Virus record (IMG/VR): IMGVR_UViG_3300009285_003056
Source of the DNA: a virus
Strand: one strand, 5' to 3'
Length of the DNA: 64,000 nt
Within the stretch, counting starts at the first letter, position 1. Every line of letters starts with the position of its first letter. The position numbers and the translations under genes are program-made. The notes below the pieces were generated by a model. The model was not told the DNA's origin and did not search any database. It saw nothing but the letters and a program-made list of their open reading frames with translations. Below, piece by piece: positions 13,497 to 36,669 of this stretch.

Positions 13497-15002
13497 TTAG
13501 ATAAAGAAAAACGATGATGCGTCCTCTGTACCCACTAAATGAGCTTCCTGCATCCCCAACCGATCTACAGTCACAGTATAGGACTGTCCTGTTAGTACAT
13601 TTGCCATCCTCTTCTGTAACCTCAAGATGCTCTTAGCGAGTCGTACTTTGTATGTGGGGTAGATAACTTGCCCCTTAACTCCCCCTATGCCAGGGGCACC
13701 CACCGTAAAGGTAGTGGAGGACGGAACAGTGGCCACATTGTGGAAACCATTCAAAGTCACGTCGGAATGGCCCACGATTCGAATTGCACTGTACCCGGAC
13801 AACACTTGAAGATCATGTGGCTGAGTGGTCGTAAAGAGGGCGTCCGGAGCAGCGGAAGACCCGACGATATCTAACCCTATGGGATCCCCCACAGGACCAT
13901 GTGTTTTCTCTCCTAACAATGTCTGAAGCCGATACGTCTCAGAACCCGTCGTGAATGCAAAGGTAATAGTTGTACCCTCCGGTAATCCGGACATATCTAC
14001 GTTTGTAGTGATTACATCTCCGGTGATGGAGGCAGTACCAGTTACGGTAGCAGACGTGGTAAATGCTACAGTAGATGTCCGATCTCGACTGATGGGAAAG
14101 GCCACTGCTTCCACCACCCGGAATACCCCCACATTCGCCCCACTGGTGATAGTGAGATTCGACCCAGGCAGGATATTGGAGAAATCCCGGGTCAGATCCT
14201 GGAATAGACTCCTATCCGAAAGGGTCACACCAACCGTCCCTGACAGATGTTTGGCCCCCAACCAATACCGCCTGAAATCATCGTAGTAATGTGCATTCAA
14301 GTCCATGGAAAGGCTATCAGTGAACACGGGAACCAGGGAATCCTGGAAGACATGCCGGTATTCGTAGATCGTTTCAGCCGGGGCCAAAACATCCAAGACC
14401 AACTTCAGGTTCTCCTGTAGGGTTACCGGATCTACCGGAAATTGGGTGCCATTTGCTACAGAGATGTTGACTTCATAGAGGAATTCATCAGATAGGGCAT
14501 AGCCCGATTTGGGATCGGATCGTCGTTCAATGCTCGCCTCAACGACAGACATGAGATCATCTGTCAAGAGTCCCACGGCCTGCTCAATAGTGAGTTTGGT
14601 CCCACCCGCTAAGAGCAATGCCACCATGCCCTTTAGGAACTCTCGATAAGAGATATCCCCAGAGATGGTTGGATTGTTGCCGTCCTGTCGTCTGAAGATC
14701 AGACTCCGCAATATCTGGTGGATGAATTCAGGCCGGGTAAAGTCATAGTCGGAGTCAGAGAATACCTCGGATGCGGACACTTGAATACGGGCCATTTCCT
14801 CAGCAGCCGCTTGAAACTGCATGGTATAGAAAGGCCCTTTCACTTGACTCACATAGTTCGATGGGAGCAAACCCATGAAGGTCTTGAGCGTCTTCTCAGC
14901 CAATGCCTTGACCTTAGACTCATACTCTTGTCCAGAGAGGCTGACAGAAGCTACTCCAGACGGTAATGAATCAGGAAGGGTCTTGTCAGGACGGTCAGCC
15001 AT
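13497..15002 (-). CDS. Baseplate wedge protein, P2 gpI / tail protein I-like (~501 aa)
   Basis: Probable start MADRPDK at 15002; the track's upstream extension overlaps isrB. LPSNYVSQ...YDFTRPEFIHQILRSLIF...YREFLKGMVALLLAGG...LDVLAPAET is a gpI-like pattern, and the gene sits in the expected position after baseplate J. Confidence 0.6.
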   Translation of the reverse strand: MADRPDKTLPDSLPSGVASVSLSGQEYESKVKALAEKTLKTFMGLLPSNYVSQVKGPFYTMQFQAAAEEMARIQVSASEVFSDSDYDFTRPEFIHQILRSLIFRRQDGNNPTISGDISYREFLKGMVALLLAGGTKLTIEQAVGLLTDDLMSVVEASIERRSDPKSGYALSDEFLYEVNISVANGTQFPVDPVTLQENLKLVLDVLAPAETIYEYRHVFQDSLVPVFTDSLSMDLNAHYYDDFRRYWLGAKHLSGTVGVTLSDRSLFQDLTRDFSNILPGSNLTITSGANVGVFRVVEAVAFPISRDRTSTVAFTTSATVTGTASITGDVITTNVDMSGLPEGTTITFAFTTGSETYRLQTLLGEKTHGPVGDPIGLDIVGSSAAPDALFTTTQPHDLQVLSGYSAIRIVGHSDVTLNGFHNVATVPSSTTFTVGAPGIGGVKGQVIYPTYKVRLAKSILRLQKRMANVLTGQSYTVTVDRLGMQEAHLVGTEDASSFFFI

Positions 15003-15036
15003 GGCGCACCGGACTCGAAAATTTGTCAAGCATGCT

Positions 15037-16077
15037 TTATCTCCAATGCCATCTAAGGGCATTATACGACACAAATTTGCACTCGGATGGACGCACCACT
15101 TTGGTGAGTCGCTTCCCAGTGCCTATTGAATGCAAGCTGATTCTCTCGTTTGACGTGCCGCCTACATACGCAAGTCCGTACCGGGGGTGTTGCACGAGTG
15201 TTCCTCTCCTGAAACCCATCGATCTGGTACCACCATGTGATCTTCTCAAACCACCTTTAGCTGGTACCTCCAAATGCAATGCCCGTCTCCGGTAATCCAG
15301 AGGGGCTATGCACAATAAGCGCCCCGATGTAGGCTGTCGTTTTATTCCCAGCCCATAAAGGGCTAGGACAAAACTGTCCACACAATGGGCATCAAAGACT
15401 TCGTCCATCTTCCTTGACGTCTTTTTCAGCCCAAGGTCATCCCTCAAAGCCTTAGTCTCATATCCCGCAATCAAAACCAAGGGGAGATTCAGGACACCAA
15501 TTTGATTAGCAAAATAGGTCTTTCCTGCCTCCAAAGGCGAGAATGACCGATTCCACTTATGTTGGCCTTTCTTGGTGGTTGCCTTGATGTCCTCAATTAC
15601 CACCTTGGCGATTGGGTAGACTCTCATCAACGCTTTGACTATGGTGAGTTTCCAATCCCATCGGGCCTTCGTTGACGGCGGGATACGATCCTGTGGCATT
15701 GACCGATTGCTACGATTAACCCGGCAAGGCGTATTCCTGCCCCGCCGTGCCCGGCGCAGTATCGCCCTGCTCTCTAACTTTTCCTTGATCTTGGTTTTGG
15801 CATCCAACTGAATGTGAATTAGGTCTGTGAGTTCTGTAAGAACGGACACGCCTTCTTTCTTTGAACCTGGATCAACCCCAATGACCACAGGTTGGATCAC
15901 ATAACCAGATGGCTCTACATTGAGTCGGGCACAGAAGATACCGAGTTCGTTCACGAACGGGGTTGCCTTCCGTGTCGAGACCCACAACTCCACCCGCCTT
16001 CTTCGTGCTGGCATAAGAGGTTTGCCTTGAGATGAGACCACAGGGATTCTCTTGGCGAGTGATGGAAAAGACTTCAT
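15037..16077 (-). CDS. isrB: IsrB-family RNA-guided nickase (RRXRR/PLMP domain, split RuvC, no HNH), ~346 aa
   Basis: PLMP motif (IPVVSSQGKPLMPARRRR), RuvC-I IGVDPGSK, Arg-rich bridge helix LESRAILRRARRGRNTPCR, RuvC-II VVIEDIK and RuvC-III FDAHCVDS. No HNH/CxxC insert lies between RuvC-II and III, and the size fits IsrB rather than IscB. The 49 extra N-terminal codons in the track correspond to the RNA region. Confidence 0.85.
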   Translation of the reverse strand: MKSFPSLAKRIPVVSSQGKPLMPARRRRVELWVSTRKATPFVNELGIFCARLNVEPSGYVIQPVVIGVDPGSKKEGVSVLTELTDLIHIQLDAKTKIKEKLESRAILRRARRGRNTPCRVNRSNRSMPQDRIPPSTKARWDWKLTIVKALMRVYPIAKVVIEDIKATTKKGQHKWNRSFSPLEAGKTYFANQIGVLNLPLVLIAGYETKALRDDLGLKKTSRKMDEVFDAHCVDSFVLALYGLGIKRQPTSGRLLCIAPLDYRRRALHLEVPAKGGLRRSHGGTRSMGFRRGTLVQHPRYGLAYVGGTSNERISLHSIGTGKRLTKVVRPSECKFVSYNALRWHWR

Positions 16078-16079
16078 GC

Positions 16080-16286
16080 CTGTAAGAGCAGCAAGTTTTT
16101 CCATCTTCGCCACTGACCCTGACAGAAGTACAGAGCTTGACGAGCACTCCGTACATGCTTGCCCTGCTGTTGCCGTACCGGCAATAGCTTCGCAGGATTC
16201 AGTTGAGGTTCTAACGGTTTCCATCCCTCCCTCTTAGGCTAATCCCAGTACTCTGAAACCCAATCTTTCAAGTTTCATCCGGAATT
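16080..16286 (-). ncRNA. omegaRNA scaffold of IsrB (5' guide predicted immediately upstream, about 16287-16306)
   Basis: Read on the minus strand: 5' stem AATTCCGG (16279-16286) / CTGGGATT (16241-16248) followed by AGCCTAAG; a 9-bp stem GTACGGAGT/GCTCTGTAC (16128-16154) whose loop TCGTCA can pair with downstream TGGCGA (16107-16112) as a pseudoknot. This arrangement matches IscB/IsrB omegaRNAs as I recall them. Confidence 0.75.
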
Positions 16287-19200
16287 CTCTGTATCCTCGT
16301 CATAAGTCAGAGAGATATCCCCGGCTGTAAGATACTCCACCGCTGTGGTTCGGATATCCTGCACCCCCGTAGACTCCTCAACCTTATAGGTAACTGCATA
16401 CGTATAGTCCGTGGGGTCCCCACCTGTGGGTAACGAAATCAGGACTCGATTCTTGGTCAACAGGACGCCTTGGGCATAGCGTTCGTTCACATCCGTCATG
16501 TCCGGGAAGTCAATCTGGAGTGTGGCATCATCTGAATACCCCGGGATGACTAGCCCGTCATTTCCAACGATGTAGGCATTTCCACTCTGCGCTTTGAGGG
16601 GCATACCCAGAGAGTTCAACGTGCCCGTGAGTAGATTCAAGGCTGTCTCATCCTGTGTGACCCCCCGGAATTCTGTGATTGCCCCGCCCCCATTACTGGT
16701 AGGAGACGACAGTACGTCTTTGATCAGGTACACATCTACCAACGATGTGCCCCAGGCAGTGATCTTCTCCAGATCTCCGCTCTCGCTGGTATCCAATGTC
16801 TCTGCCAGCACCGTAGTCCCAACTGCCCGAGCTACAGTCGTAAGGGGGACCACTACGTAGGAGACTCCCGTAGTCTTCTTGATGGTTTCGATTACATCCG
16901 AAACTCGGAGGGGCGATCCTAAGCCTTTCTTGGCGAACATGGATGTGATGTTGGTTCTGATAGCCCGATCCACTACAGACGGATCAGAACCCTTCAAGAG
17001 AACCACCGTTGCCCCCACATCTACTAGAGTCTTGATCGCCTGCTTGACCACCACATCGGCAGTCAATCTCCGCTGTGGCTCCAGGTCAGCCTGGACGATA
17101 GACACTAGGGCATTGGATCGGTAAGCAACAGTGAAGTTCTCGTCATGCTCATAGTCGATCAGAAGAGACTGTCCAGAAGTGATTGTGCTCGTCTCCGTCC
17201 GTTGAATGCCGATTGCTGCCACACTGGGGTCACTGGGAACGATGATCCGATAATCAGGGGTGAGTACTCCAGTGGCAACAGGCTGATACTGGACTGTTCG
17301 CCCCACATTCCAAACTTCGATGGTGAGGATATTAGACCCAAAGAAATTCAGGTACTCTACGTAGTCCCCTAGGATGACATGAGTTTCCCCGGTCACAGTG
17401 ATAATCTGCCCGATTCGCCCAGAGGCAGTGGGGGAGTCGACCTGAATGTAATCGTCTGCCATTGAGGAGAGGCCCAAGAGAAGAGGGTTATCTTGTCTGT
17501 AAAGGGCATAGGTATCCGGGTCCACCGTACCCGTAGCTCCTGTTTCCCCAATCAGAGAGACCAGAGCAGTCACGGGCTGCCTGGACATAATGTGTTTGTT
17601 GCTGGTCCGATACCTGTAATCCCCCTGGAGTACATCTGTGAGCGTGACATTAGCAGGATCATTGTAGGCACTAGATAACTGAATGGTATCAAAAGAAGGG
17701 TAAGTGACTCCTGTAAGGCTGAACCACATACCAGACGTGACACTACGGAAACCCAACGGCGGCGTATTGGCTGGGAAATCCAACATCTCGACTAGAGGGT
17801 TCGACGGTGTCAATGTCGGATAGGTGCCCACAACAGGTACGGCTCTGAAGGTCAAATCTTGGGGGTCCCCCACGATCTCAAAATTGACCCCATAGGCGAT
17901 CTCGTAGGTGAATGCAAAGGTGTCTGAAACCGTGGCTGAATTTTCCCCACGTACCCAAATGTCGACCTTGCCCCCGATGTGCCGCCCCAATGTGGAGTCA
18001 TAATCCCTCTTCATCAGGGCATCCCCACTGGGGATTACATTGACACCTGAAACCCCCGCCATATTGACACAGGCTTCCGTGTAACCTTGTCGAGTCCCAC
18101 CATCCAGCCCCGTGAGAGCCCCCTGGCACCGTACAGCCAGCTCCCGATTGGACTCCCTGTTGTACCCGCCATACGTCTTTGCTTCGTTGGTAACGAAAAC
18201 ACCTGTGATACCACGAACACCCGTAATTTGCCCAGCGGGCACATTTCCGCCAGTCCCCACTTCTTCCGCCTGGATGAAAGCCCTGACGGAATATCTACCC
18301 GTGGCAGCATTGTAGAAAGACGCAATGTTGGAGATACTGATCTCGGCGGCAGAAGATGTCCGAAATAGAACAGAGCCACTATAGGCAATGGTACCAATCG
18401 GAATGGGTATACTCCGACTGGGCCGTTTGGTCGTGTAAAATGTGGCCTCACCCTTAGCCAATTTTCCTAGTAGCCTGGACTTCCCGTAATTGGACGCCAA
18501 CTTCTCGAAGATAGAGTCGATGACTGTCTGTACATCGTTCAGGTTGGACATCCTGAATGCCTGTGCTAAGGCAATCTTATAGTTGGACCGATCCGGGGCA
18601 ATCGAGAATCCCGTGAAGTTGGGGTCATCTATAGCCAAGAGCGTGGAGAATGACTGTGCCTTATGGATGAAATCCAGTATGAACCTAACTCGTTCTGCCT
18701 CTGTGGAGAACGGATCCAGGAAAGTATCCCGCAACACCGATCCCGGCTGTGTGGACACCCCAGGGTTCGACCTATAAATGGACACAACCCCATCCTTCAC
18801 GATTTGGGGTCGAGTTACCATGGGGAAGGAACCCACCGAAGTCGTAATCCTAAGAGGATATCCGGGGATCTCCATGGACATCGGGGACTCAACCTCTACT
18901 GCAATCGTAGAGTCATAGTAGACAGCCGTTACAGTGTAGTAGATGGGCTCTGTCTGAGGCGTAGACGCCAACTCTCCTACAGGGATAGCTGGATAAGTAG
19001 ACGTGGTGTCTGCATTCCGATCATGAAAGAAGTAGTAGGTAGACGTATCCTTCACAGAGGAGACAGTTGTATGGATACGTATCTTCGTGACGGTCTCGGG
19101 AATGTTCACCCGCTCGTTGAAATCCATCTCCAAGGTGGTTCCGTTCCGATCCTCTTGCGACCCTTGGATACGAAAGAGCTGTGGGTCTGCAAGTGGAATT

Positions 19201-19790
19201 CCGTTGGTATCTACTGCGACCGTGGCATCAACGTCTAACTCCCCCAACTCGCTCTCATCTTCTCCTTGTACGCTCTCCAGGGTTGTAATTGTATTGACAT
19301 TGATCCGATGGTATCCTGTAGAACCGCCTCCGGTCGCTGTAGCAGCGTAGAAATTGTATCCTGTGACTAGTGTACTGTCGATGCCACTTACACCCACCTT
19401 CACGAGCCCATCCATCTTCTCTACCGTAATCCCTGTGGGGGCCTGGACCACTAGGTTCACATCGTTTGCTTGAACCAATCTTACTGTGACAGTGGCTTCT
19501 CCAGATGTATCCCCTGTCGTGTTGATGGAACGAACTTTGATGGTGTTGTCCCCAGGCAACAATTGCAACCCATCTGGATACTTGGATGGGTTGGGGACTG
19601 TGAAGGAGGCCCCCTCGAAAGTAATCAGATCAGGATCGTCCTCGAAGGCACTCCCAAATGCTGATATTTGCATGTAGATGGTGTCAGCATCTATAGACCC
19701 CGTGAAGAATCGAGTGGAGACGGTGGTGTGGAAAATGAACGTCTCCCGATAGACTCCATCAGGACCAAGGAATTTGGGTGTCGTCGCCAT
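16275..19790 (-). CDS. Baseplate J-like wedge protein (T4 gp6 / P2 gpJ family) with N-terminal Ig/FN3-like extension, 1171 aa
   Basis: AKGEATFYTT...IPIGTIAY...VRAFIQAEEVGTGGNVPAGQIT...VTNEAKTYGGYNRESNRELAVRCQGALTGLDGGTRQGY is the Baseplate_J signature. The gene follows the gp25-like gene. Confidence 0.85.
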   Translation of the reverse strand: MATTPKFLGPDGVYRETFIFHTTVSTRFFTGSIDADTIYMQISAFGSAFEDDPDLITFEGASFTVPNPSKYPDGLQLLPGDNTIKVRSINTTGDTSGEATVTVRLVQANDVNLVVQAPTGITVEKMDGLVKVGVSGIDSTLVTGYNFYAATATGGGSTGYHRINVNTITTLESVQGEDESELGELDVDATVAVDTNGIPLADPQLFRIQGSQEDRNGTTLEMDFNERVNIPETVTKIRIHTTVSSVKDTSTYYFFHDRNADTTSTYPAIPVGELASTPQTEPIYYTVTAVYYDSTIAVEVESPMSMEIPGYPLRITTSVGSFPMVTRPQIVKDGVVSIYRSNPGVSTQPGSVLRDTFLDPFSTEAERVRFILDFIHKAQSFSTLLAIDDPNFTGFSIAPDRSNYKIALAQAFRMSNLNDVQTVIDSIFEKLASNYGKSRLLGKLAKGEATFYTTKRPSRSIPIPIGTIAYSGSVLFRTSSAAEISISNIASFYNAATGRYSVRAFIQAEEVGTGGNVPAGQITGVRGITGVFVTNEAKTYGGYNRESNRELAVRCQGALTGLDGGTRQGYTEACVNMAGVSGVNVIPSGDALMKRDYDSTLGRHIGGKVDIWVRGENSATVSDTFAFTYEIAYGVNFEIVGDPQDLTFRAVPVVGTYPTLTPSNPLVEMLDFPANTPPLGFRSVTSGMWFSLTGVTYPSFDTIQLSSAYNDPANVTLTDVLQGDYRYRTSNKHIMSRQPVTALVSLIGETGATGTVDPDTYALYRQDNPLLLGLSSMADDYIQVDSPTASGRIGQIITVTGETHVILGDYVEYLNFFGSNILTIEVWNVGRTVQYQPVATGVLTPDYRIIVPSDPSVAAIGIQRTETSTITSGQSLLIDYEHDENFTVAYRSNALVSIVQADLEPQRRLTADVVVKQAIKTLVDVGATVVLLKGSDPSVVDRAIRTNITSMFAKKGLGSPLRVSDVIETIKKTTGVSYVVVPLTTVARAVGTTVLAETLDTSESGDLEKITAWGTSLVDVYLIKDVLSSPTSNGGGAITEFRGVTQDETALNLLTGTLNSLGMPLKAQSGNAYIVGNDGLVIPGYSDDATLQIDFPDMTDVNERYAQGVLLTKNRVLISLPTGGDPTDYTYAVTYKVEESTGVQDIRTTAVEYLTAGDISLTYDEDTENSG

Positions 19791-19793
19791 ACA

Positions 19794-20864
19794 TTACCCC
19801 AGGGAAAGGCCATTGGTGCCAGGGAGTGCTGTCACTCCAGGAACCGTGTAGACGATGGAGATTGAAACAGGATCGGACGATGCGTTCCGAAGAATCACGT
19901 CCACCACATACATAGTGGGGTTGTTCTTATCCGAGGTGGTTCGAACCGTAACGACTTCGTACAGTCGCTCCTTGAACGTCACTTGCTGATACTTGGCCTG
20001 TTCTGCCTGTATCTTCTGGAAGGTCTTCAGTGCTCGACGAACCTCCTCAGAAAGAGATGCCGCCACATTCCCGACCGCCTTGGACCCTATCTTGTTCTGG
20101 ATGGACGTGCCATAGAAAGTGTGATACGGATTTGAACCTTGTGTGGTTAGAAGCAGCTTCTGTGCTGCCTGGACCAACAGGTTCTCATTCGTGATCATTG
20201 CCATATTGCCGTGTTGATCGAATCTATAGTCATTTTCGATCCCGTACCCACGGCACCGCAAACACTTGTACCTGTCCACTGTATAGGAAACCGTCAGAGT
20301 CGGATTCGATTGTAGAGGTTCTACAAATTTGAGACTCTTGGTGAGCGAACCAGTAGGCTTAGCCAATGTCCAGCCCGGATATACCTTGTGCCCTCGTGCC
20401 CCAAGTTGTCCCGTAAACCCAAGAGCCGATGCTGCCAACCCCGAAACCTGAATGACAGAGGTTGACCCAGTGCTATCGGAGTCTGTCAACTTCAAACATC
20501 CGTTAGCATCTTCTACTGCGATTGATGAAGCTTGGGCCTTCAAGGCAACAATCACATCCTGGACACTCAGACGCTCCGTAGTGCTATACGGCAATGTTAT
20601 AGATAGCGTTTCCTTGGATGAAATCACAGAGAATGTCTGCTCGTTACGGATGATCCTGAAGGGGCCAGAAAAAGCCCCGATAAGGGAGGCATTCGTACTA
20701 AGGCCCTGACTAGGGATTGTCACGCTATCGTTTGCTCTGAGCTGGATAAAGCCCCCTGCCACAGGCTGTTTGGTGGGTAGAGACATCCGATCAGAGCCGA
20801 GGGTAATAACCTCCTCAACCGTAAGATGTGGGCAACTGAACGCTAATCGGACATCTTGGGACAC
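19794..20864 (-). CDS. Baseplate wedge / sheath-initiator protein, gp25/GPW-like C-terminal domain with N-terminal extension (356 aa, GTG start)
   Basis: The C-terminus ENDYRFDQHG...NENLLVQAAQKLLLTTQGSNPYHTFYGTSIQNKIG...LSEEVRRAL...VDVILRN is gp25-like, and the gene lies directly upstream of baseplate J. Confidence 0.75.
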   Translation of the reverse strand: MSQDVRLAFSCPHLTVEEVITLGSDRMSLPTKQPVAGGFIQLRANDSVTIPSQGLSTNASLIGAFSGPFRIIRNEQTFSVISSKETLSITLPYSTTERLSVQDVIVALKAQASSIAVEDANGCLKLTDSDSTGSTSVIQVSGLAASALGFTGQLGARGHKVYPGWTLAKPTGSLTKSLKFVEPLQSNPTLTVSYTVDRYKCLRCRGYGIENDYRFDQHGNMAMITNENLLVQAAQKLLLTTQGSNPYHTFYGTSIQNKIGSKAVGNVAASLSEEVRRALKTFQKIQAEQAKYQQVTFKERLYEVVTVRTTSDKNNPTMYVVDVILRNASSDPVSISIVYTVPGVTALPGTNGLSLG

Positions 20865-33800: not shown

Positions 33801-36669
33801 CGAATGCATTAGTTAGAGTATCCCCCCCAGCCGTCCAACTCCCTTGGAATCCCGACCCAATGAAACGCCCAACGGACTCGGTGAACAGGACTGTTCCGGG
33901 TAGTCCGTTCTGGGGCAGCAGGTAGTCAACCCCCTGCTCGAATGTAACGAAGGGGCCCCCAGTCTCAGATACCCATAAATTCCGCCCCGCATTGGGAGCA
34001 ACCCCAATCATTGTCTCGGGGGTGATCCCCGTATGCCCCAACTGCAATGTCTGTGCCGCTCTTGGGAGTATCTCGGATCCTGAGTGTACATTCAACCATT
34101 GAAAATGGTTTTCCTCGAATCTGTATGCCACATCCACTAGGTTCTTCAGGTATCGAGTGAAAGTGGCCTCTTGCGTCCCCTTCTTGATAGTCGTTGTCAA
34201 CTGGAAAAAAGTGGACTCGTCATAGCCCGGGACATCCTGTAGGGGCGGCTGACGGAAGACCACCACGGGCTGACTAGGCACATATTCTGATAACACTTCA
34301 TTGGATACCTGATAACGAGTCTTGAAGTCCGCTTCGGGCTTTGTTCTATCCGTATTGAGTGGGTTCCGGAATAGCCCCAATGAGATACCTGAATCCGGAT
34401 GCCACCAGGCCTCCCCATCCAAACCTCGCCATCCAGGGAGTATCCCGAATAGCGTGCACCCCGAAAGATCCTTAGCAGCATTGATCCCGAAACCAATCTC
34501 TATGTCTCCACCGACCAAAGTGCTCTCGATTACAAGGTAGCCATTGGAATCATATGCAATGGCATCCCCACCAGCCATAAGTGTATTGAAGCTGTCTGCT
34601 ATCTCAGCCGTGCTCTTTGATCCCCCACCTGGGAAGAGAGCAAAGGCAGACCAGACATAGAAGATTCCATTGACAGCGAAGTACAGATTTTCAGTTCCTC
34701 CAACTGGGAACGAATCCCGTACCCTAGATATCACTCTGGCTTTCGAGGTCACTGTGGAAGGGGTGAGCAAAGCCTGCTGAAAATACATCCGCTGCCCTAA
34801 GAATTCTGCACGGTCTTTACGACTGATGGCAGCCTTAGAGCGGTCTGCCACACCTGCCTCTCTCGCCACATAAGCCCTCCCACCCAACACAAGGAAGGGA
34901 AGTGCAGGCAAGGCATCTTCCCGATCCGCTACATAGATGGTATCATCCGCCCTTGTAGACCCAAAGACAATGAGATCCCCGAAGTTCTCTCCACTATCCC
35001 TGGTGGGTCCGACCTTACGAACCAAACCTGTAGTCTGATCCGTAAGAACTTCTCCTCCGGGTCGGACTCCAGGCACACTGGAATTGTTGGGAATTGCACC
35101 CGTCCCATCTGGTTCATGCAGAATACCAGAAATGGCTATTCCATTGTAGCCCCTAGAGTCTCTGACAGGCACATAGAGATCATTAGTAGCCGTCACATCG
35201 ATGGGGGCACCAGCCGCACTTACCAAAGAAACTGGATACCACAAAGGTTGGGGCGATGCATTGCATGCCAACCCATCGTAAACTACTCGTGCCCCTAAGT
35301 ACTCAGGGTCAAAGTACGGGCTATTCTTGTCCGCACGTCCCACCACCTCTGCATTGAATCTTAGCTTTCCAGTAGCTAATGAGACTCCTACTTCAGTTAT
35401 CCCCACAGCAGCAATCGCTGCCAATGCAGCATCCGTAGACACTACAATCGCAGTCAAATGTCGCCTCGACCCGATCCTGATGAAGGGGTATTGCTCAAGT
35501 TGGGGGATTGGGGCAATGAACAGGGGATCATCGTCTGCCCCATCCAAGTAGCCTACTATCCCCGTGTCCGTAGCCCTGAATGTCCTGGGAGCGTACCAAA
35601 CGAATTGCCCGGCATATGCAACCACAAGAGCAGGGTTGCAGATTAAAGTACCAGTGGAAATCCCAATGACCCCAGCGATATCTGATCCTGTGAAGTCATA
35701 GGAAGATGTGGCATCAGAGTCTTCAACTACAAGGATCCCCGTGAAATCCCCTGGAGGTATAACCTGGACGGCTAGGGGTTTGCTCTGACTATCCGGTTGC
35801 AAACCTACCCGCACCATACAGTAGGCATCCCCAGCTGCTGATCCGGGCAGATAGTCCCCTACAGACACACCAGATGGCCTGGGGTCAAGCTTATACGAAC
35901 CCCCAACTTCTAACCTACCCGCATTAGTGACAGATGTACCCTTGTAGGGTTCCCACCTCTGTGTCCGATCACTCCAACCAAAGCGATTCTCATAGGGGTC
36001 ATTCCGTGTCCACCAGAACTCCACCGGAGCAATGAAATAGCGGACTGCGGAGACTCCATCCCCACGTTCAATCGATAAGCCACCCCCAAAGGTGGCAGCC
36101 AAGACAGAGGATTCAATGACTATCAGCCCAGAATCAGAGTCGACGCTATCAAAGGCGTTCCCAATTGGATTGGGATCATCTGGCCCTGCCAACCCTACAG
36201 CTCCGGACAAAAGAGTGTATTCAACCCCTGTGTCCCCACGTAGCACTTGGATGGAAAAGACAGACCCAATAGTACGCTCTCCATTGTCTTTCAGGACAAC
36301 TCTGCTTGTACCATCGGTGTAGGTTCCAACTGTAGTTGTTCCAACGGGGATAGAACAAGTGCCGTCTGTCACGATCCAAGGGTCATTGTATGCATCCGGG
36401 TTATTCGGGCTCAGGACTGCGATCTGCCCCGAATGTGCAGCCCAGACAAGATACTCTGTGTCCCCCGCTACAGCTGAGTCCAGAATTGCGGCTCTATACT
36501 GATCAGCATACATATCCACAAGGACGGGATTCTGCCCCTCAATGAAGGGATCCCCTATCAAATGCTTCAAATCCCGAACTACACCACTTACAGGGAGTGC
36601 CGTATCGGGAGAGTTCGATGGGGCTGCTTTTGCCCCTCGAATCACATAGCCGTCAAAGACGAAACTCAT
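24802..36669 (-). CDS. Giant virion structural protein (3955 aa), baseplate/tail-associated, multi-domain
   Basis: An 11.9-kb uninterrupted ORF within the baseplate cluster. It is beta-rich and contains recognisable small inserted domains (see findings). I recognised no enzymatic or intein motifs. Confidence 0.75.
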   Translation of the reverse strand: MSFVFDGYVIRGAKAAPSNSPDTALPVSGVVRDLKHLIGDPFIEGQNPVLVDMYADQYRAAILDSAVAGDTEYLVWAAHSGQIAVLSPNNPDAYNDPWIVTDGTCSIPVGTTTVGTYTDGTSRVVLKDNGERTIGSVFSIQVLRGDTGVEYTLLSGAVGLAGPDDPNPIGNAFDSVDSDSGLIVIESSVLAATFGGGLSIERGDGVSAVRYFIAPVEFWWTRNDPYENRFGWSDRTQRWEPYKGTSVTNAGRLEVGGSYKLDPRPSGVSVGDYLPGSAAGDAYCMVRVGLQPDSQSKPLAVQVIPPGDFTGILVVEDSDATSSYDFTGSDIAGVIGISTGTLICNPALVVAYAGQFVWYAPRTFRATDTGIVGYLDGADDDPLFIAPIPQLEQYPFIRIGSRRHLTAIVVSTDAALAAIAAVGITEVGVSLATGKLRFNAEVVGRADKNSPYFDPEYLGARVVYDGLACNASPQPLWYPVSLVSAAGAPIDVTATNDLYVPVRDSRGYNGIAISGILHEPDGTGAIPNNSSVPGVRPGGEVLTDQTTGLVRKVGPTRDSGENFGDLIVFGSTRADDTIYVADREDALPALPFLVLGGRAYVAREAGVADRSKAAISRKDRAEFLGQRMYFQQALLTPSTVTSKARVISRVRDSFPVGGTENLYFAVNGIFYVWSAFALFPGGGSKSTAEIADSFNTLMAGGDAIAYDSNGYLVIESTLVGGDIEIGFGINAAKDLSGCTLFGILPGWRGLDGEAWWHPDSGISLGLFRNPLNTDRTKPEADFKTRYQVSNEVLSEYVPSQPVVVFRQPPLQDVPGYDESTFFQLTTTIKKGTQEATFTRYLKNLVDVAYRFEENHFQWLNVHSGSEILPRAAQTLQLGHTGITPETMIGVAPNAGRNLWVSETGGPFVTFEQGVDYLLPQNGLPGTVLFTESVGRFIGSGFQGSWTAGGDTLTNAFATGEATFTDLGAMAGYKIKIPSGDSKGSYTVTSAPSASVLQVAPNFPSGNGTTPGSWELYHGLTETVYDPGLIADVIADEFNHLQTEPFKVRVLSPMGDVPIDKTAQAASRLVAPIADAIKSSRIMGVRFGLAHGATWADSLALIQSLTAQVYILSETSLGVMQNGTLVVPGSALTDSEHTRFAGGYFSIRVGTTLYVNGVDLIGVSTFSADPGANIEYLLLTGELKFGSVVLSEFEGSYVSWVPTYMDPDVLSAGIVEVDPNTGSTNFSTADMTQHAGTEAYFVEQMVTEGRLDVALNPLTGTIGFNKPLEINRLVEIDYLVAATDGTLSVDRAGQSTHIVEFLPLYIRSETCTLVSANLYAFNSAGKTIFTDVVPTVYVGATMMNFGQEDTIIDIGTNQIRFLVPIDTSRPVTISYAVLETFGGEKVFSASHKPIYRPPFYLPALTANFTLFGDRTGDVTIGKLLRVGPFPTYIKSVAYAATTDTTTVGIYPSPTTEVGSRSPGNDVLITLTGIPVTTTVDTVTVPTAPAGFLLPVVQTWDPVDRDQMEITVHGNVLQFAVPGHLMELGKYPFIVASARLTDDGLNTIVVTTSPFPKHFDAELGEVLKLSVRPIYPPSSRSLLGVGPVLETEPVEVILWGETDENGSLLPGRTLAAGMEYDLEKASGAVTLIAPIQEPLGATQKLSIRFTKVKTLSPYMDQGVLHLPRVKYSYRYNDQPSEDNGFLGGQLKASYTVYSPDSFYSRVTPLLTYMGEASQDILRGKAAEFKAPGGPITPAMPTAENYTHGVSGIDTLRTNLTDTDRAARSLLDFYAQVTGAFEQIKEAITGDVVGDRDGKFRFFIGRGQEYTSPGFEDPFTGNLNPRNIYSEVFAALATVSPDWTVPILEDDWVVNPDGASLTGGVVSGSFPSGYLVGRMIAQQRGAITNDIDDQVLVGLKNTEVRFNPFPIYQVRAKGDFLALHDPSTLSRIFPEKTKGYLTTYPGLDNDVSSGDKGVYSYLRLIDGDFESTWGTTIGRLANPVMGELSGVSEVTLRKRFPRARVWKYYPTGIPQGAFDGTLPNVPLDRPCVVATPLPLRDFPIDPTTGYPDVSKLQQQTAPTEGLADLTTGEIEVSSPPFYHPIMGMFASKMQVAFGHPDSTISSVGCPLVLLDGISPSGVFVDEVLYGCVVTFKTVDALGADLPIVNPTHILQMQDQTSGAPLTLDPGDTLLITPPGFDAQEPTTPPTPEDQARFRDALPAFRVGSDVLVRKSGKLVDISLPGGSDPIPWFLDFQNLMNQTPPKPMVAYEAEVEITNSSTSPLMIPALLGQAKDDTGDVSTPYIGATNTELERLGYAQDYLAEILATVSAGSDPVTVPWPGPGNPNWNFVYPDEIKANDGTIRTTLAGDISPAALLTTVWHNPVSGDPLLLGTENAQAYDLLLTQYGTGTAELPEGSQGWLSIGRVNRNGLNTYSMIEPPRFITPTAMGDDIRYTVDHFMSFCHDETSWDWTLGMPPLPVNPTGVQITVDSNPGVESLTLDFSTVLPQIALNDGTAGATGGLNTVLFAHVLNLLTLRMFVREPLGVFYPGEYTVPITFDGAGQVTADLAVAGLAVVFNQTSIVVTGVGASTVLNLALHPELPSSVIALNVVQTDYCVDFTFSLSTVAGKSTTGAIFTDRLTFLEQIDFRLARERGWVHPIGKQRIDCQLLVPQVETETSATSTINRGINGDNGGGIFFPLTFLERDSSDLKATDGISRGVGTFEVASAIGAGDEVGSLRAMGFEGYRELPLGAGAIATGNVLGGVVTSVVVAAPGAGYQGGFVEVAFGGVGTGAAGYATVDPVTGAVLTVTVTNPGHGYGAGPLVIPVTLTHNAGNVAITSQDITFSMLPSMGLDETVTLPGDGGIICRGFGLVQDPVDNIITNIDVTAGAPDGGAVSKVVPGDTVVISGGHTVQGSIKTGTYLVRHAVEQNTPLGVGGILSLAGDEVRALTLSSQAGGGSGWVDIRFPKIAESSSNPSILTSSISTGGFSTITTATAHGLIVGDHVHVAGHSVVALNRTFAVAAPVTARAFRIATALGTGGTGGVAHVGPSIDSIDRTIRITDIFDSATMADSPSGHGFPAAGILYIVLVNDGADSQVLAAEYVSVEDNPLNADYRKFTLRVNTGTEYRAADGSNIAMGNEGAEFWALLEQGQLISGMAYFAIQPFDEQGLPANNTVGFTTDTAGLTRAIYGLAGITITSPGATVGPQEFVEDQTYCNPVPANMRNIVAGVAADDIRVHPRTLVAGISTVFQADKFTTVYAGVPGYLDISNFTTTYRVGPGTAWDNIRNPIPPGVNTAATCILPQDVLTTEAPFSAIAGTNVYDDVLTNGFWAKSGIFLEPSFARPAQNLAADAVGDQRLVQDNTPAVAVTEIGFRFDGVNETIDLEVRRIRRFHEVQDSLAENLNPLRFAYEVRRGRITNYASDVALKQAGLVTATGYAFPPDSPYYLGGAIYMGTQLGLFTSPDVAIREGDIFRLIKSNLTAGAYPRPWEVVEEVPIMKVAADDVVRLMPPGLTNPEFLNDVTLGQYERWYFEIYLKNAPVPHEQSCEQLLTLATERVVTSTAADYTTQEGGYVPNITLALPYSGVVNKLQDDSTADSFSKRGVLVGDIVLVDPAGRVRGPTGETTPPESGSRPYGDKGVLPRQAQDPAFFASGHPSALDDNRGFYRVTAIDDTNHWLEVDGTSRFGGILGTDVIFPPDVVAQTTLGYAVYPTVNGSPLPPTGIEGQVDLRPTRLAGLLDDGTPAPIANSFSYSFHSIRPFSYKVIRPSGLFSEEAIDIILSTRERTLSLIEQFRGPMSGGKSGDYYIFQQDNHGDNIGLVTIADSGLGVFNNSLIIDAGGQTNTLPFGNDYDCLSILDRRFWALDTRLDYLTSDGTGVGVRMVTGPGDVPYTAYNDVTAVPAPSLVRPVLPDWVDIALDIDDRFRQLRNAWIGYRTDRKTGTLAAIERLDSQIPELKEEMVQTVLQRKGLIE

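What the first reader, a model, noticed from the sequence alone, without database searches (positions are those of the whole stretch)
16241..16306. omegaRNA scaffold overlaps the baseplate J stop codon, so the guide would be the phage's own baseplate coding sequence
The first scaffold stem predicted by hand (AATTCCGG 16279-16286 pairing with CTGGGATT 16241-16248) begins within the last codons of baseplate J (GAG AAT TCC GGA TGA = ENSG*). The element therefore seems to supply the gene's last residues and stop codon. IscB/IsrB guides are the sequence 5' of the scaffold, here about CTTATGACGAGGATACAGAG (16287-16306; codons ..TYDEDTE). The RNP would target the uninterrupted baseplate J allele of related co-infecting phages, giving allele-specific homing or phage-phage competition, while the insertion leaves the essential gene intact.
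Basis: partly seen in the sequence, partly recalled or inferred. Interest (0 to 1): 0.85.

Follow-up and report, generated by a model that had tools for sequence, protein, structure and literature searches.

The report
IsrB guide-RNA element ending phage baseplate gene
A small mobile element that encodes an RNA-guided DNA nickase (IsrB) and its guide RNA sits exactly at the junction of two tail genes of a groundwater phage. It now supplies the last codons and the stop codon of the baseplate gene, so its built-in guide is the end of that gene. This is a well-preserved case of a known kind of element, not a new system.

Summary
On the minus strand the baseplate J-like ORF (19790..16275) ends GAG AAT TCC GGA TGA.

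- **Scaffold start.** In 69 related IsrB loci the first scaffold base pairs with the base just before a conserved TAG, with G-C to A-T covariation. By that rule the scaffold starts at A16285.
- **Insertion.** Two relatives that lack the element (56-57% identical) end baseplate J with ..TYDEDVDE* or ..TYDEDTDS*, and J overlaps or abuts the next gene. The window therefore carries an insertion of about 1.27-1.28 kb that supplies the present ..NSG* end.
- **Function.** IsrB has its RuvC residues, no HNH domain, and dN/dS of 0.13-0.17. The omegaRNA core changes 3-4 times more slowly than synonymous sites.
- **Generality.** In 31 of the 69 loci the upstream ORF also stops inside the scaffold.

Not shown: expression, the RNA 5' end, the 3' boundary and TAM (ATGG, GTGC or GTCC), any element-free allele, and homing itself. 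First readers of this scan noted similar cases on other DNA. My verdict is a new member of a known kind, of moderate interest.

The parts
16275..19790 (-). Baseplate J-like gene (1171 aa). Its native part runs at least through ..TYDEDTE (GAG 16289-16287). The last codons AAT TCC GGA TGA (16286-16275) are wholly or mostly element-derived.
   Evidence: ORF list. Pfam Baseplate_J E 2e-17. C-termini of 79 homologues share ..YDED, often followed by T plus D or N.
16286..16305 (-). Predicted omegaRNA guide, TTATGACGAGGATACAGAGA (20 nt assumed; natural length unknown; 3' end uncertain by about 1-3 nt).
   Evidence: It lies immediately 5' of S1. Flanks are unrelated between independent insertions. It occurs once in the 64-kb window at up to 3 mismatches.
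16279..16285 (-). S1 5' strand AUUCCGG; A16285 is scaffold nucleotide 1 and the transposon right-end boundary. A16286 can add one further pair with T16241.
   Evidence: Family covariation rule. Sister-type copies in three contexts all begin at the homologous A(T)CCC.
16254..16277 (-). Inner hairpin of the 5' domain (UGAAACUUGA / AAGA loop / UUGGGUUUCA). Its first three bases are the baseplate J stop codon TGA.
   Evidence: Folds.
16242..16248 (-). S1 3' strand CUGGGAU, followed by the family-conserved UAG (16241-16239).
16105..16247 (-). Conserved omegaRNA core (CAACUGAA, GUGCU..C.AG and CAGUGGCGAAG motifs). It runs into the isrB start.
   Evidence: 87-92% identical to copies in other contexts, against 34-49% difference at synonymous sites. 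Motifs are shared with 69 loci.
15037..16104 (-). isrB, 355 aa from ATG 16104, with stop TAA at 15039-15037. The longer 395-aa ORF from 16224 is a read-through of the RNA gene.
   Evidence: Pfam RRXRR E 5.9e-34. DtIsrB 8DMB E 2e-38. Invariant D/E/H/D. ATG 16104 is kept in all copies, while ATG 16080 is ACG in two. dN/dS 0.13-0.17.
15003..15042 (-). 3' tail, which is the left-end region of the transposon on the other strand. It is unrelated in sequence to the sister type except for AUUU(U)C(G/A)AGU. The exact end lies somewhere in 15015-15003.
14999..15014 (-). Candidate TAMs of the empty-site target: GTCC 15014-15011, GTGC 15009-15006, ATGG 15002-14999. The last contains the start codon of the next gene.
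   Evidence: Sister-type end ..CAUUUCAA|GUGG and |GUAG. Published IsrB TAMs are NTGA, NTG and NTGG (PMC9581776)..
13497..15002 (-). Next tail gene (501 aa, MADRPDKTLPDSL..), directly adjacent to baseplate J in both element-free relatives.

Best explanation
A non-autonomous IS200/IS605-type (ISC1) element of about 1.27-1.28 kb is inserted at the stop/start junction between the baseplate J-like gene and the next tail gene of a large groundwater phage. It lies in the same orientation as the operon. Running from about 16285 to 15015-15003, it carries an omegaRNA gene and isrB, an HNH-less RuvC nickase related to the ancestors of Cas9. The element's right end is the first base of omegaRNA stem S1 (A16285). 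Transcripts that read through from baseplate J therefore carry the last 16-20 nt or so of the J coding sequence (16305-16286) as the guide. The insertion cut J off from its own end, and the scaffold supplies (A)AT TCC GGA TGA, so J now ends ..TENSG*. The next gene keeps its ATG. The inferred function is as follows. IsrB with its omegaRNA recognises the uninterrupted junction, which is the guide match followed by the right-flank TAM. That junction exists only in an element-free copy, either after excision or in a co-infecting near-identical phage. IsrB nicks it, and recombinational repair copies the element back or in. The filled site escapes because the guide match is followed by ATTC, which lacks the G required at TAM position 3. 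The anatomy, the insertion, the selection on protein and RNA, and the family-wide habit are shown here. Expression, guide length, the TAM, nicking and homing are inferred.
For: - **Insertion.** Relatives L009 and L075 have J and the next gene overlapping or abutting, with J ending ..VDE* or ..TDS*.
- **IsrB identity and integrity.**
- **S1 and scaffold start.** Shown by covariation in 69 loci and by three independent insertions of the sister type, which all start at the homologous A.
- **Guide position.** Follows from the IsrB architecture (PMC9581776) and from the omegaRNA being bounded by the right end (10.1101/2023.03.14.532601).
- **Purifying selection.** isrB has dN/dS 0.13-0.17. The omegaRNA core differs by 8-13%, against 34-49% at synonymous sites.
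- **Transcription.** No promoter-like or terminator-like site lies in 14700-16700, and the element is co-oriented with J. This fits read-through transcription and the published orientation bias of IscB elements.
- **Family habit.** In 31 of 69 phage-borne loci the upstream ORF stops inside the scaffold. In reconstructed junctions the stop falls within 5 nt of the join in 20 of 31 open upstream frames read (29 loci).
Against: - No element-free allele of this phage was found, so the junction is reconstructed only from relatives that are 56-57% identical.
- No RNA run holds the region.
- The right boundary and the TAM are unresolved. The position homologous to the sister type's end gives GTCC, which does not fit NTG.
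- The 5' domain has a single hairpin. The majority clade's GCCAA and GTGGCAG motifs, probably the adaptor-pseudoknot partners that DtIsrB needs, are absent, so activity is not assured.
- A covariance model built from the majority clade scores the window weakly (13 bits, E 0.05) and misaligns its 5' part. Rfam HEARO does not hit.
- Both ends of this copy differ from those of its nearest relatives, and the history of that change is unexplained.
- IsrB only nicks, and homing driven by a nick has not been shown for any phage.
Confidence: 0.72

Rival explanations
1. The element is a fixed passenger that no longer homes. IsrB and the omegaRNA may be intact or recently inactivated, but no target allele is left in the population. 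The scaffold/stop-codon overlap is then only the scar of a tolerated insertion.
For: Every contig that carries this baseplate J also carries the element. No empty-site joint appears in four runs. The omegaRNA 5' domain is atypical and both ends are remodelled. No tnpA lies in the 64-kb window.
Against: dN/dS of 0.13-0.17 and an omegaRNA core that evolves 3-4 times more slowly than synonymous sites argue for continued function across copies. However, those values average over a long history. S1 pairing was preserved even though the 5' strand was replaced.
Confidence: 0.15
2. The 40 nt between the J stop region and 16248, and the 40 nt before the next gene's ATG, are native phage intergenic DNA. 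Only the conserved core (16247-15043) was inserted. Baseplate J would then natively end ENSG*, and the guide would be about 16267-16248, not J coding sequence.
For: Homology to the nearest copies in other contexts starts abruptly at 16247 and stops at 15043. No close element-free relative exists to exclude this.
Against: Both element-free relatives have no spacer at all between the two genes. A core that starts at GGGAU would lack the 5' strand of S1, which every family member has. The window supplies exactly that strand (AUUCC) at the right distance, enclosing a hairpin of the same size and shape as in the sister type (43 nt against 50 nt). Sister-type copies in three contexts show that the 5' domain belongs to the element.
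Confidence: 0.08
3. The IsrB-omegaRNA has been taken over by the phage for a purpose other than self-propagation, for example guided binding or nicking that regulates late genes or attacks another genome.
For: It lies in an essential late operon, is under strong purifying selection, and has no transposase nearby. Domesticated TnpB relatives that act as RNA-guided repressors are known (10.1101/2023.11.30.569447, seen only in the search list).
Against: The catalytic residues are intact. The guide matches nothing else in the 64-kb window at up to 3 mismatches. Related copies sit in unrelated contexts, as mobile elements do.
Confidence: 0.05

Closest known systems
DtIsrB-omegaRNA of Desulfovirgula thermocuniculi (PDB 8DMB; Hirano et al. 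2022, PMC9581776), and K2IsrB from a viral metagenome contig in the same paper
   Same: PLMP/RRXRR N-terminus, split RuvC with catalytic residues, no HNH domain, about 350 aa. The guide RNA is encoded just upstream with the guide at its 5' end, followed by stem S1. Candidate TAMs of NTG type are present.
   Different: The alignment (E 2e-38) reaches only to residue 308, so the TAM-reading residues (R323, Q326) cannot be mapped. The 5' domain holds one hairpin instead of SL1 plus SL2. The probable adaptor-pseudoknot motifs of the majority clade are missing. The scaffold is shorter, about 180-200 nt against 262 nt.
[quoted passage not shown]
   Same: [quoted passage not shown] The guide is flanking DNA. 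The element is co-oriented with the upstream gene. It is mostly non-autonomous, with no tnpA.
   Different: It sits in a phage structural operon rather than a bacterial chromosome, uses a nickase rather than a double-strand nuclease, and has no tnpA in the 64-kb window. One of five related phage genomes checked carries two Y1 tnpA genes elsewhere.
Free-standing homing endonuclease genes of T-even phages (Seg, Mob) and 'transposon non-restorative homing' as proposed in PMC13565253
   Same: A nuclease gene sits between two conserved phage genes and is predicted to cut the allele that lacks it in a co-infecting phage. Self is distinguished from non-self by the presence of the insert.
   Different: Recognition is by an RNA guide plus a TAM rather than by protein. 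No experimental evidence exists for any phage-borne OMEGA element. The review calls the phage case theoretical.
Sister copies in the same groundwater communities (L058/L165, L166/L168, truncated L163)
   Same: The isrB and omegaRNA core are 83-88% identical (85% aa for L058), and the S1 3' strand GGGAU|UAG is the same.
   Different: The genomic contexts are unrelated. The 5' domain and the 3' tail differ in sequence, and so do the guides.

Membership tests
IsrB (HNH-less IscB-family OMEGA nickase) | N-terminal PLMP/RRXRR domain | tested here: met
   Pfam PF14239 E 5.9e-34, 117.9 bits against a cut-off of 25. The GKPLMPA motif is aligned with 20 homologues.
IsrB (HNH-less IscB-family OMEGA nickase) | Split RuvC domain with catalytic Asp, Glu and His/Asp | tested here: met
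   D in GVDPGSK, E in VIEDIK, and H and D in AHCVDS are invariant in 21 sequences. These stretches align with DtIsrB 8DMB (E 2e-38).
IsrB (HNH-less IscB-family OMEGA nickase) | No HNH nuclease insertion | tested here: met
   The protein is 347-355 aa and RRXRR is the only Pfam hit. It aligns with IsrB over residues 9-308, but with IscB structures only over the first 110-150 residues or so.
IsrB (HNH-less IscB-family OMEGA nickase) | TAM-interacting domain that reads an NTG-type TAM; nicking of the non-target strand | not testable with these tools
   The alignment to 8DMB ends before R323 and Q326.
IsrB omegaRNA | Structured RNA gene directly upstream of the ORF, overlapping its start, on the same strand | tested here: met
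   z = -5.5 for 16310-16050. The core is conserved with 69 loci and evolves more slowly than synonymous sites.
IsrB omegaRNA | Stem S1 that closes the 5' domain, with scaffold base 1 paired to the base before a conserved UAG | tested here: met
   Pair 1 is G-C in 52, A-U in 10 and G-U in 3 of 69 sequences. Pairs 6 and 7 covary. In the window, A16285-U16242 is followed by six more pairs.
IsrB omegaRNA | Embedded SL1 and SL2, and an adaptor pseudoknot | tested here: inconclusive
   Only one hairpin lies inside S1. The majority-clade motifs GCCAA and GTGGCAG are absent, and the latter is replaced by a 10-bp hairpin with a GUA loop. No pseudoknot prediction was made.
IsrB omegaRNA | Match to a family covariance model | tested here: inconclusive
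   Rfam (including HEARO RF02033) gives no hit at E up to 10. My model from 38 majority-clade leaders gives 13 bits and E 0.05 for the window, and 21.9 bits and E 3e-4 for L076. The model did not encode S1.
IS200/IS605-type (ISC1) transposon | Discrete ends defined by independent insertions or an empty site; no target duplication | tested here: inconclusive
   The left (guide-side) end is defined for the sister type by three contexts and for the window by homology and by two element-free relatives. The other end of the window copy is uncertain within 15015-15003.
IS200/IS605-type (ISC1) transposon | Y1 (HUH) TnpA transposase in the element or the genome | tested here: not met
   tblastn with two phage TnpA sequences finds nothing in the 64-kb window (best E 3). 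The rest of the genome is not held. One of five related phage genomes has tnpA elsewhere. Most IscB/IsrB elements lack tnpA (10.1101/2023.03.14.532601), so this does not exclude membership.
Homing element (non-restorative homing between phages) | Existence of an element-free target allele that is cut, with biased inheritance of the element | tested here: not met
   No element-free allele was found. The next-best baseplate J is 56% identical, and contigs of four runs show no joint across the element. Contigs drop rare variants, so absence is not shown. Inheritance is not testable here.

The most novel reading that the evidence does not exclude
A lineage of IsrB-omegaRNA elements has specialised on phage genomes. 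The elements land on stop/start junctions of co-transcribed genes and use read-through transcripts for their guide. They carry stop codons in the first 20 nt or so of the scaffold that re-terminate the upstream gene. They spread between co-infecting phages as a transposase-independent, nick-driven gene drive, or act as a weapon against element-free competitors. The window copy would be one such drive, fixed in a baseplate operon, whose ends were re-tailored to the site.
Probability: 0.3. Interest if true: 0.7.

Novelty: new member of a known kind. Interest (0 to 1): 0.45.

Why it matters
OMEGA nucleases are the ancestors of Cas9 and Cas12. Their natural role is known only from bacterial insertion sequences and one plasmid gene-drive experiment. 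This locus is a clean natural case in a phage. The guide, the predicted target (a gene junction in an essential tail operon) and the self/non-self distinction can all be read from the sequence. At least 100 related loci in viral contigs show the same habit of sitting on gene junctions. That makes the idea of RNA-guided homing or competition between phages directly testable with a defined guide and a small set of candidate TAMs. It also offers a compact IsrB with a reduced omegaRNA 5' domain. The mechanism itself is the expected one, so the value is as a good test case and not as a new principle.

Tried and rejected
- **Rfam scan of 14500-17000 at E up to 10.** It returned only two chance hits and no HEARO.
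- **blastn of the locus against 50,697 phage records.** No match.
- **The window's own assembly.** It is not held. The nearest virus record, G001 (15.9 kb), does not contain the region.
- **Search for an empty site.** The protein search with the C-terminal half of baseplate J found nothing between 100% and 56% identity. Laying contigs of four runs found no joint that skips the element, only the sister copy's flanks at 16246 and 15043. Raw reads were not available.
- **A shared CAGAG just 5' of the stem in the window and in L058.** I first took it as a sign that the scaffold starts further upstream. I rejected this for three reasons. In L058-type copies CAGAG lies inside the scaffold, after the S1 strand AUCCC, and three contexts start at that A. 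In the window CAGAG encodes the T-E that is homologous to the T-D/T-N of many baseplate J proteins. The match was also found post hoc among many offsets.
- **The start codon of the downstream gene as the general TAM.** 43 of 62 loci read ATGA. This is only partly upheld. Sister-type copies and six closely related majority-clade loci lose homology about 10 nt before the ATG, at GTGG, GTAG or GTGA. The TAM is therefore NTGA/NTAG/NTGG-like and often overlaps the upstream stop codon instead.
- **An apparent recurrent downstream ORF of about 216 aa.** It was an artefact of loci cut at 700 nt of flank.
- **Covariance model of the full leader.** The shortened model lacked S1 and aligned the window poorly.
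- **Pattern scans for more copies of the subclade.** They found two further sister-type contexts (L163; L166 with L168) besides the known one in metagenomes, none in viral contigs, and only chance matches in genomes.
- **Upstream ORF test on L166.** It was uninformative because no long ORF is present.
- **PARP-gene relative L079.** It was too divergent to give an empty site for the sister copy.
Full report
**What is at the coordinates**

All coordinates refer to the minus strand. A 1171-aa ORF (19790..16275) hits Pfam Baseplate_J and ends GAG AAT TCC GGA TGA, which is ENSG*. Fifty bases downstream starts a 395-aa ORF (16224..15037). From its residue 60 onwards it matches Pfam RRXRR (PF14239, E 5.9e-34), the N-terminal domain of IscB/IsrB. 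The next tail gene (501 aa) starts at ATG 15002.

It is part of the minimum-free-energy fold of 16310-16050, which is much more stable than shuffled sequence (z = -5.5). It also appears in the fold of the 5' part alone. The stop codon TGA (16277-16275) forms the first three bases of a 10-bp hairpin enclosed by that stem.

**The protein is an intact IsrB**

- It aligns with DtIsrB (PDB 8DMB) at E 2e-38. It matches IscB structures only over the first 110-150 residues or so.
- It has no HNH domain.
- It keeps the PLMP motif and the RuvC residues D (GVDPGSK), E (VIEDIK), and H and D (AHCVDS). These are invariant among 21 homologues.
- The real start is most likely ATG 16104, giving 355 aa. That codon is kept in all related copies, while ATG 16080 is ACG in two of them.
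- The 395-aa reading used by gene callers is a read-through of the RNA gene. Its apparently conserved N-terminal extension (..VRTSTE..SVAK..) is the translation of conserved omegaRNA sequence.

**It is an insertion**

Two related phages lack the element. Their baseplate J C-terminal part is 56-57% identical to the window's.

- L009 ends ..TTC ACG TAT GAC GAG GAT GTG GAC GAA TGA, which is ..FTYDEDVDE*. The ATG of the next gene lies in a GAATGA overlap.
- L075 ends ..TAT GAT GAG GAT ACC GAT AGC TGA TGG CTG AC, which is ..TYDEDTDS*. The next gene starts MADDPTKYLPDSL. The window's next gene starts MADRPDKTLPDSL.

Neither relative has any spacer between the genes, and neither ends ENSG*. Among 79 baseplate J homologues, the motif ..YDED followed by T and then D or N recurs. 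The window's T-E (ACA GAG, 16292-16287) is therefore native, and the divergence begins right after it. No closer element-free relative exists among 5.8 billion proteins; the next hit after the window's own cluster is 56% identical.

**Where the scaffold starts**

I collected 69 non-redundant IsrB loci. Most come from IMG/VR viral contigs, where at least 100 relatives exist, many on contigs of 100-480 kb.

- In most loci, conservation begins at GTCAAC.
- The first scaffold base pairs with the base immediately before a conserved TAG. The pattern is GTC...GAC|TAG in 52 sequences. It is A at base 1 with T before the TAG in 10, counting the window, L058 and L076, and seven majority-clade loci read ATC...GAT|TAG. 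Three have G-T.
- Pairs 6 and 7 also covary.
- Sliding the 3' partner by 1-2 bases drops the paired cells from 254 of 345 to between 11 and 119.

The window, its sister type (L058) and L076 all have GGGAT|TAG, and their 5' strands are ATTCC, ATCCC and ATCCC. A metagenome pattern scan then found the sister type in three unrelated contexts (L165, L163, L166/L168). Homology among these starts exactly at that A. By this rule the window's scaffold base 1 is A16285, which pairs with T16242. A16286 is the last flank base.

This agrees with two published facts. The guide sits directly 5' of S1 in IsrB omegaRNA (PMC9581776). [quoted passage not shown]

**Is it maintained?**

An IsrB that is 85% identical (L058) sits in a quite different place, between a PARP-domain gene and small ORFs, in the same groundwater samples. 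A further copy lies in a third context (L166).

| Comparison between copies | Value |
|---|---|
| isrB dN/dS | 0.13-0.17 |
| Difference at synonymous sites | 34-49% |
| Difference in the omegaRNA core (16247-16105) | 8-13% |

Both the protein and the RNA are under purifying selection.

One oddity remains. By its ORF, the window copy is closer to L166 than L166 is to L165. Yet L165, L166 and the truncated L163 share one 5' domain (about 94% identical) and, where present, one 3' tail. The window's 5' domain (16285-16248) and 3' tail (15042-15003) are unrelated to these in sequence. Both ends of the window copy were therefore replaced and did not slowly diverge. S1 pairing, and the overall shape of an outer stem around a roughly 10-bp hairpin, were kept.

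**The far boundary and the TAM are not settled**

In the sister type, homology between contexts stops after ..GCATTTCAAGT, 10 nt before the downstream ATG. The flank then begins (GT)GGGG.. or (GT)AGGA... Six closely related majority-clade loci likewise lose homology at ..CCGCCGC|GTGA or |GTAG, 10-12 nt before the ATG. Other loci have no NTG motif before an ATGA start.

The clade's TAM thus looks like NTGA, NTAG or NTGG. This is compatible with the published IsrB TAMs NTGA, NTG and NTGG (PMC9581776). It often contains the upstream gene's stop codon or an ATGA stop/start overlap.

| Candidate TAM | Coordinates | Left boundary needed | Reconstructed J end | Note |
|---|---|---|---|---|
| GTCC | 15014-15011 | 16286/16285 | ..TESPVRHG* | Position-homologous to the sister type's end, but not NTG |
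| GTGC | 15009-15006 | one base further 5' | ..TEVRHG* | Fits NTG |
| ATGG | 15002-14999 | 16286/16285 | ..TENG* | Closest to the relatives |

In every case the stop is TGA 14997-14995, in an ATGGCTGA overlap with the next gene. In every case the present ..NSG* end and its stop come from the element. In the filled site the guide match is followed by ATTC, which lacks the G at TAM position 3, so self-targeting should be avoided.

**A family habit**

- In 47 of the 69 loci a long upstream ORF (at least 70 open codons) ends within 60 nt of the scaffold start.
- In 31 of these, including the window, the stop lies inside the scaffold. Recurrent positions are +1, +5 and +16; the last is the loop of the first stem-loop.
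- When the flanks are joined, 31 open upstream frames in 29 loci can be read. In 20 of them the upstream ORF stops within 5 nt of the join, mostly at the TGA of ATGA.

The frame enrichment alone is modest. It rests on ORFs that may in part be spurious, and it does not distinguish the two boundary models. First readers of this scan noted the same pattern on other DNA. I treat those notes as leads only.

**Other context**

- No sigma-70-like promoter or intrinsic terminator lies in 14700-16700. This fits read-through transcription from the late operon, and the published bias of IscB elements to share the orientation of the upstream gene.
- No Y1 transposase is encoded in the 64-kb window.
- One of five related phage genomes checked has two tnpA genes elsewhere.
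- The guide matches nothing else in the window at up to 3 mismatches.
- The known element-free relatives would not be targets. L075 has 4 mismatches, two of them TAM-proximal, and no TAM in register. L009 is out of register.
- No RNA run holds the region.

**Verdict**

That the element supplies the gene's end is well supported. Homing or phage-phage competition is the expected behaviour of such an element (PMC13565253 lists it as theoretical for phages), but nothing here shows it.

Three caveats apply: the 5' domain is atypical, the TAM is unresolved, and no target allele was found. This is a well-preserved new member of a known kind and a good experimental test case.

Noticed in passing
L163:2760-3255 (oriented copy; metagenome contig Ga0208958_1013587): A truncated copy holds the omegaRNA plus only about the first 120 codons of isrB, then unrelated sequence. 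It combines the sister-type 5' domain with a core nearer the window type (89% identical over 383 nt). It could act as a stand-alone guide RNA or be a decaying remnant.
   Followed up: partly
window 16285-16248 and 15042-15003: Both ends of the window's element are unrelated in sequence to those of its closest relatives, although the core is 83-88% identical and the window is closer to L166 than L166 is to L165. The ends seem to have been replaced as units. Their source is unknown.
   Followed up: partly
69 IsrB loci, mostly L080-L159 (IMG/VR viral contigs): At least 100 IsrB relatives lie on viral contigs, many of 100-480 kb. In 31 of 69 non-redundant loci the upstream ORF ends inside the omegaRNA scaffold, at recurrent positions +1, +5 and +16. 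The downstream gene's ATG lies 13-18 nt after the end hairpin in most, and 43 of 62 read ATGA.
   Followed up: partly
G004 (IMGVR_UViG_3300037255_000025, 169,748 bp): 19597-19959 and 35626-35988: A complete phage genome that carries an IsrB element (L081, at about 103 kb) also encodes two Y1 (HUH) TnpA transposases far from it (E 2e-39 and 3e-37). Some of these phages could therefore mobilise the elements in trans.
   Followed up: no
window 16224-16105: Gene callers extend isrB to 395 aa through the omegaRNA. The same extension, with an apparently conserved peptide (..VRTSTE..SVAK..), is called in many homologues. It reflects conserved RNA sequence that happens to stay open and is not evidence of coding.
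   Followed up: yes
L077:3575-3650 and L078 (same sequence): A tRNA-like sequence (GCTCCGGTAGCTCAGACGGTAGAGCAC..) starts about 45 nt downstream of the isrB stop in this phage contig. It was not scanned with a tRNA finder.
   Followed up: no
L058:4895-4935 (same place as L165): In the sister copy the predicted guide lies within a hairpin, GGATGTG..CACATCC, whose 3' arm runs into the scaffold's first bases. An earlier first-reader note on that DNA saw the same hairpin and suggested it could gate the guide.
   Followed up: no
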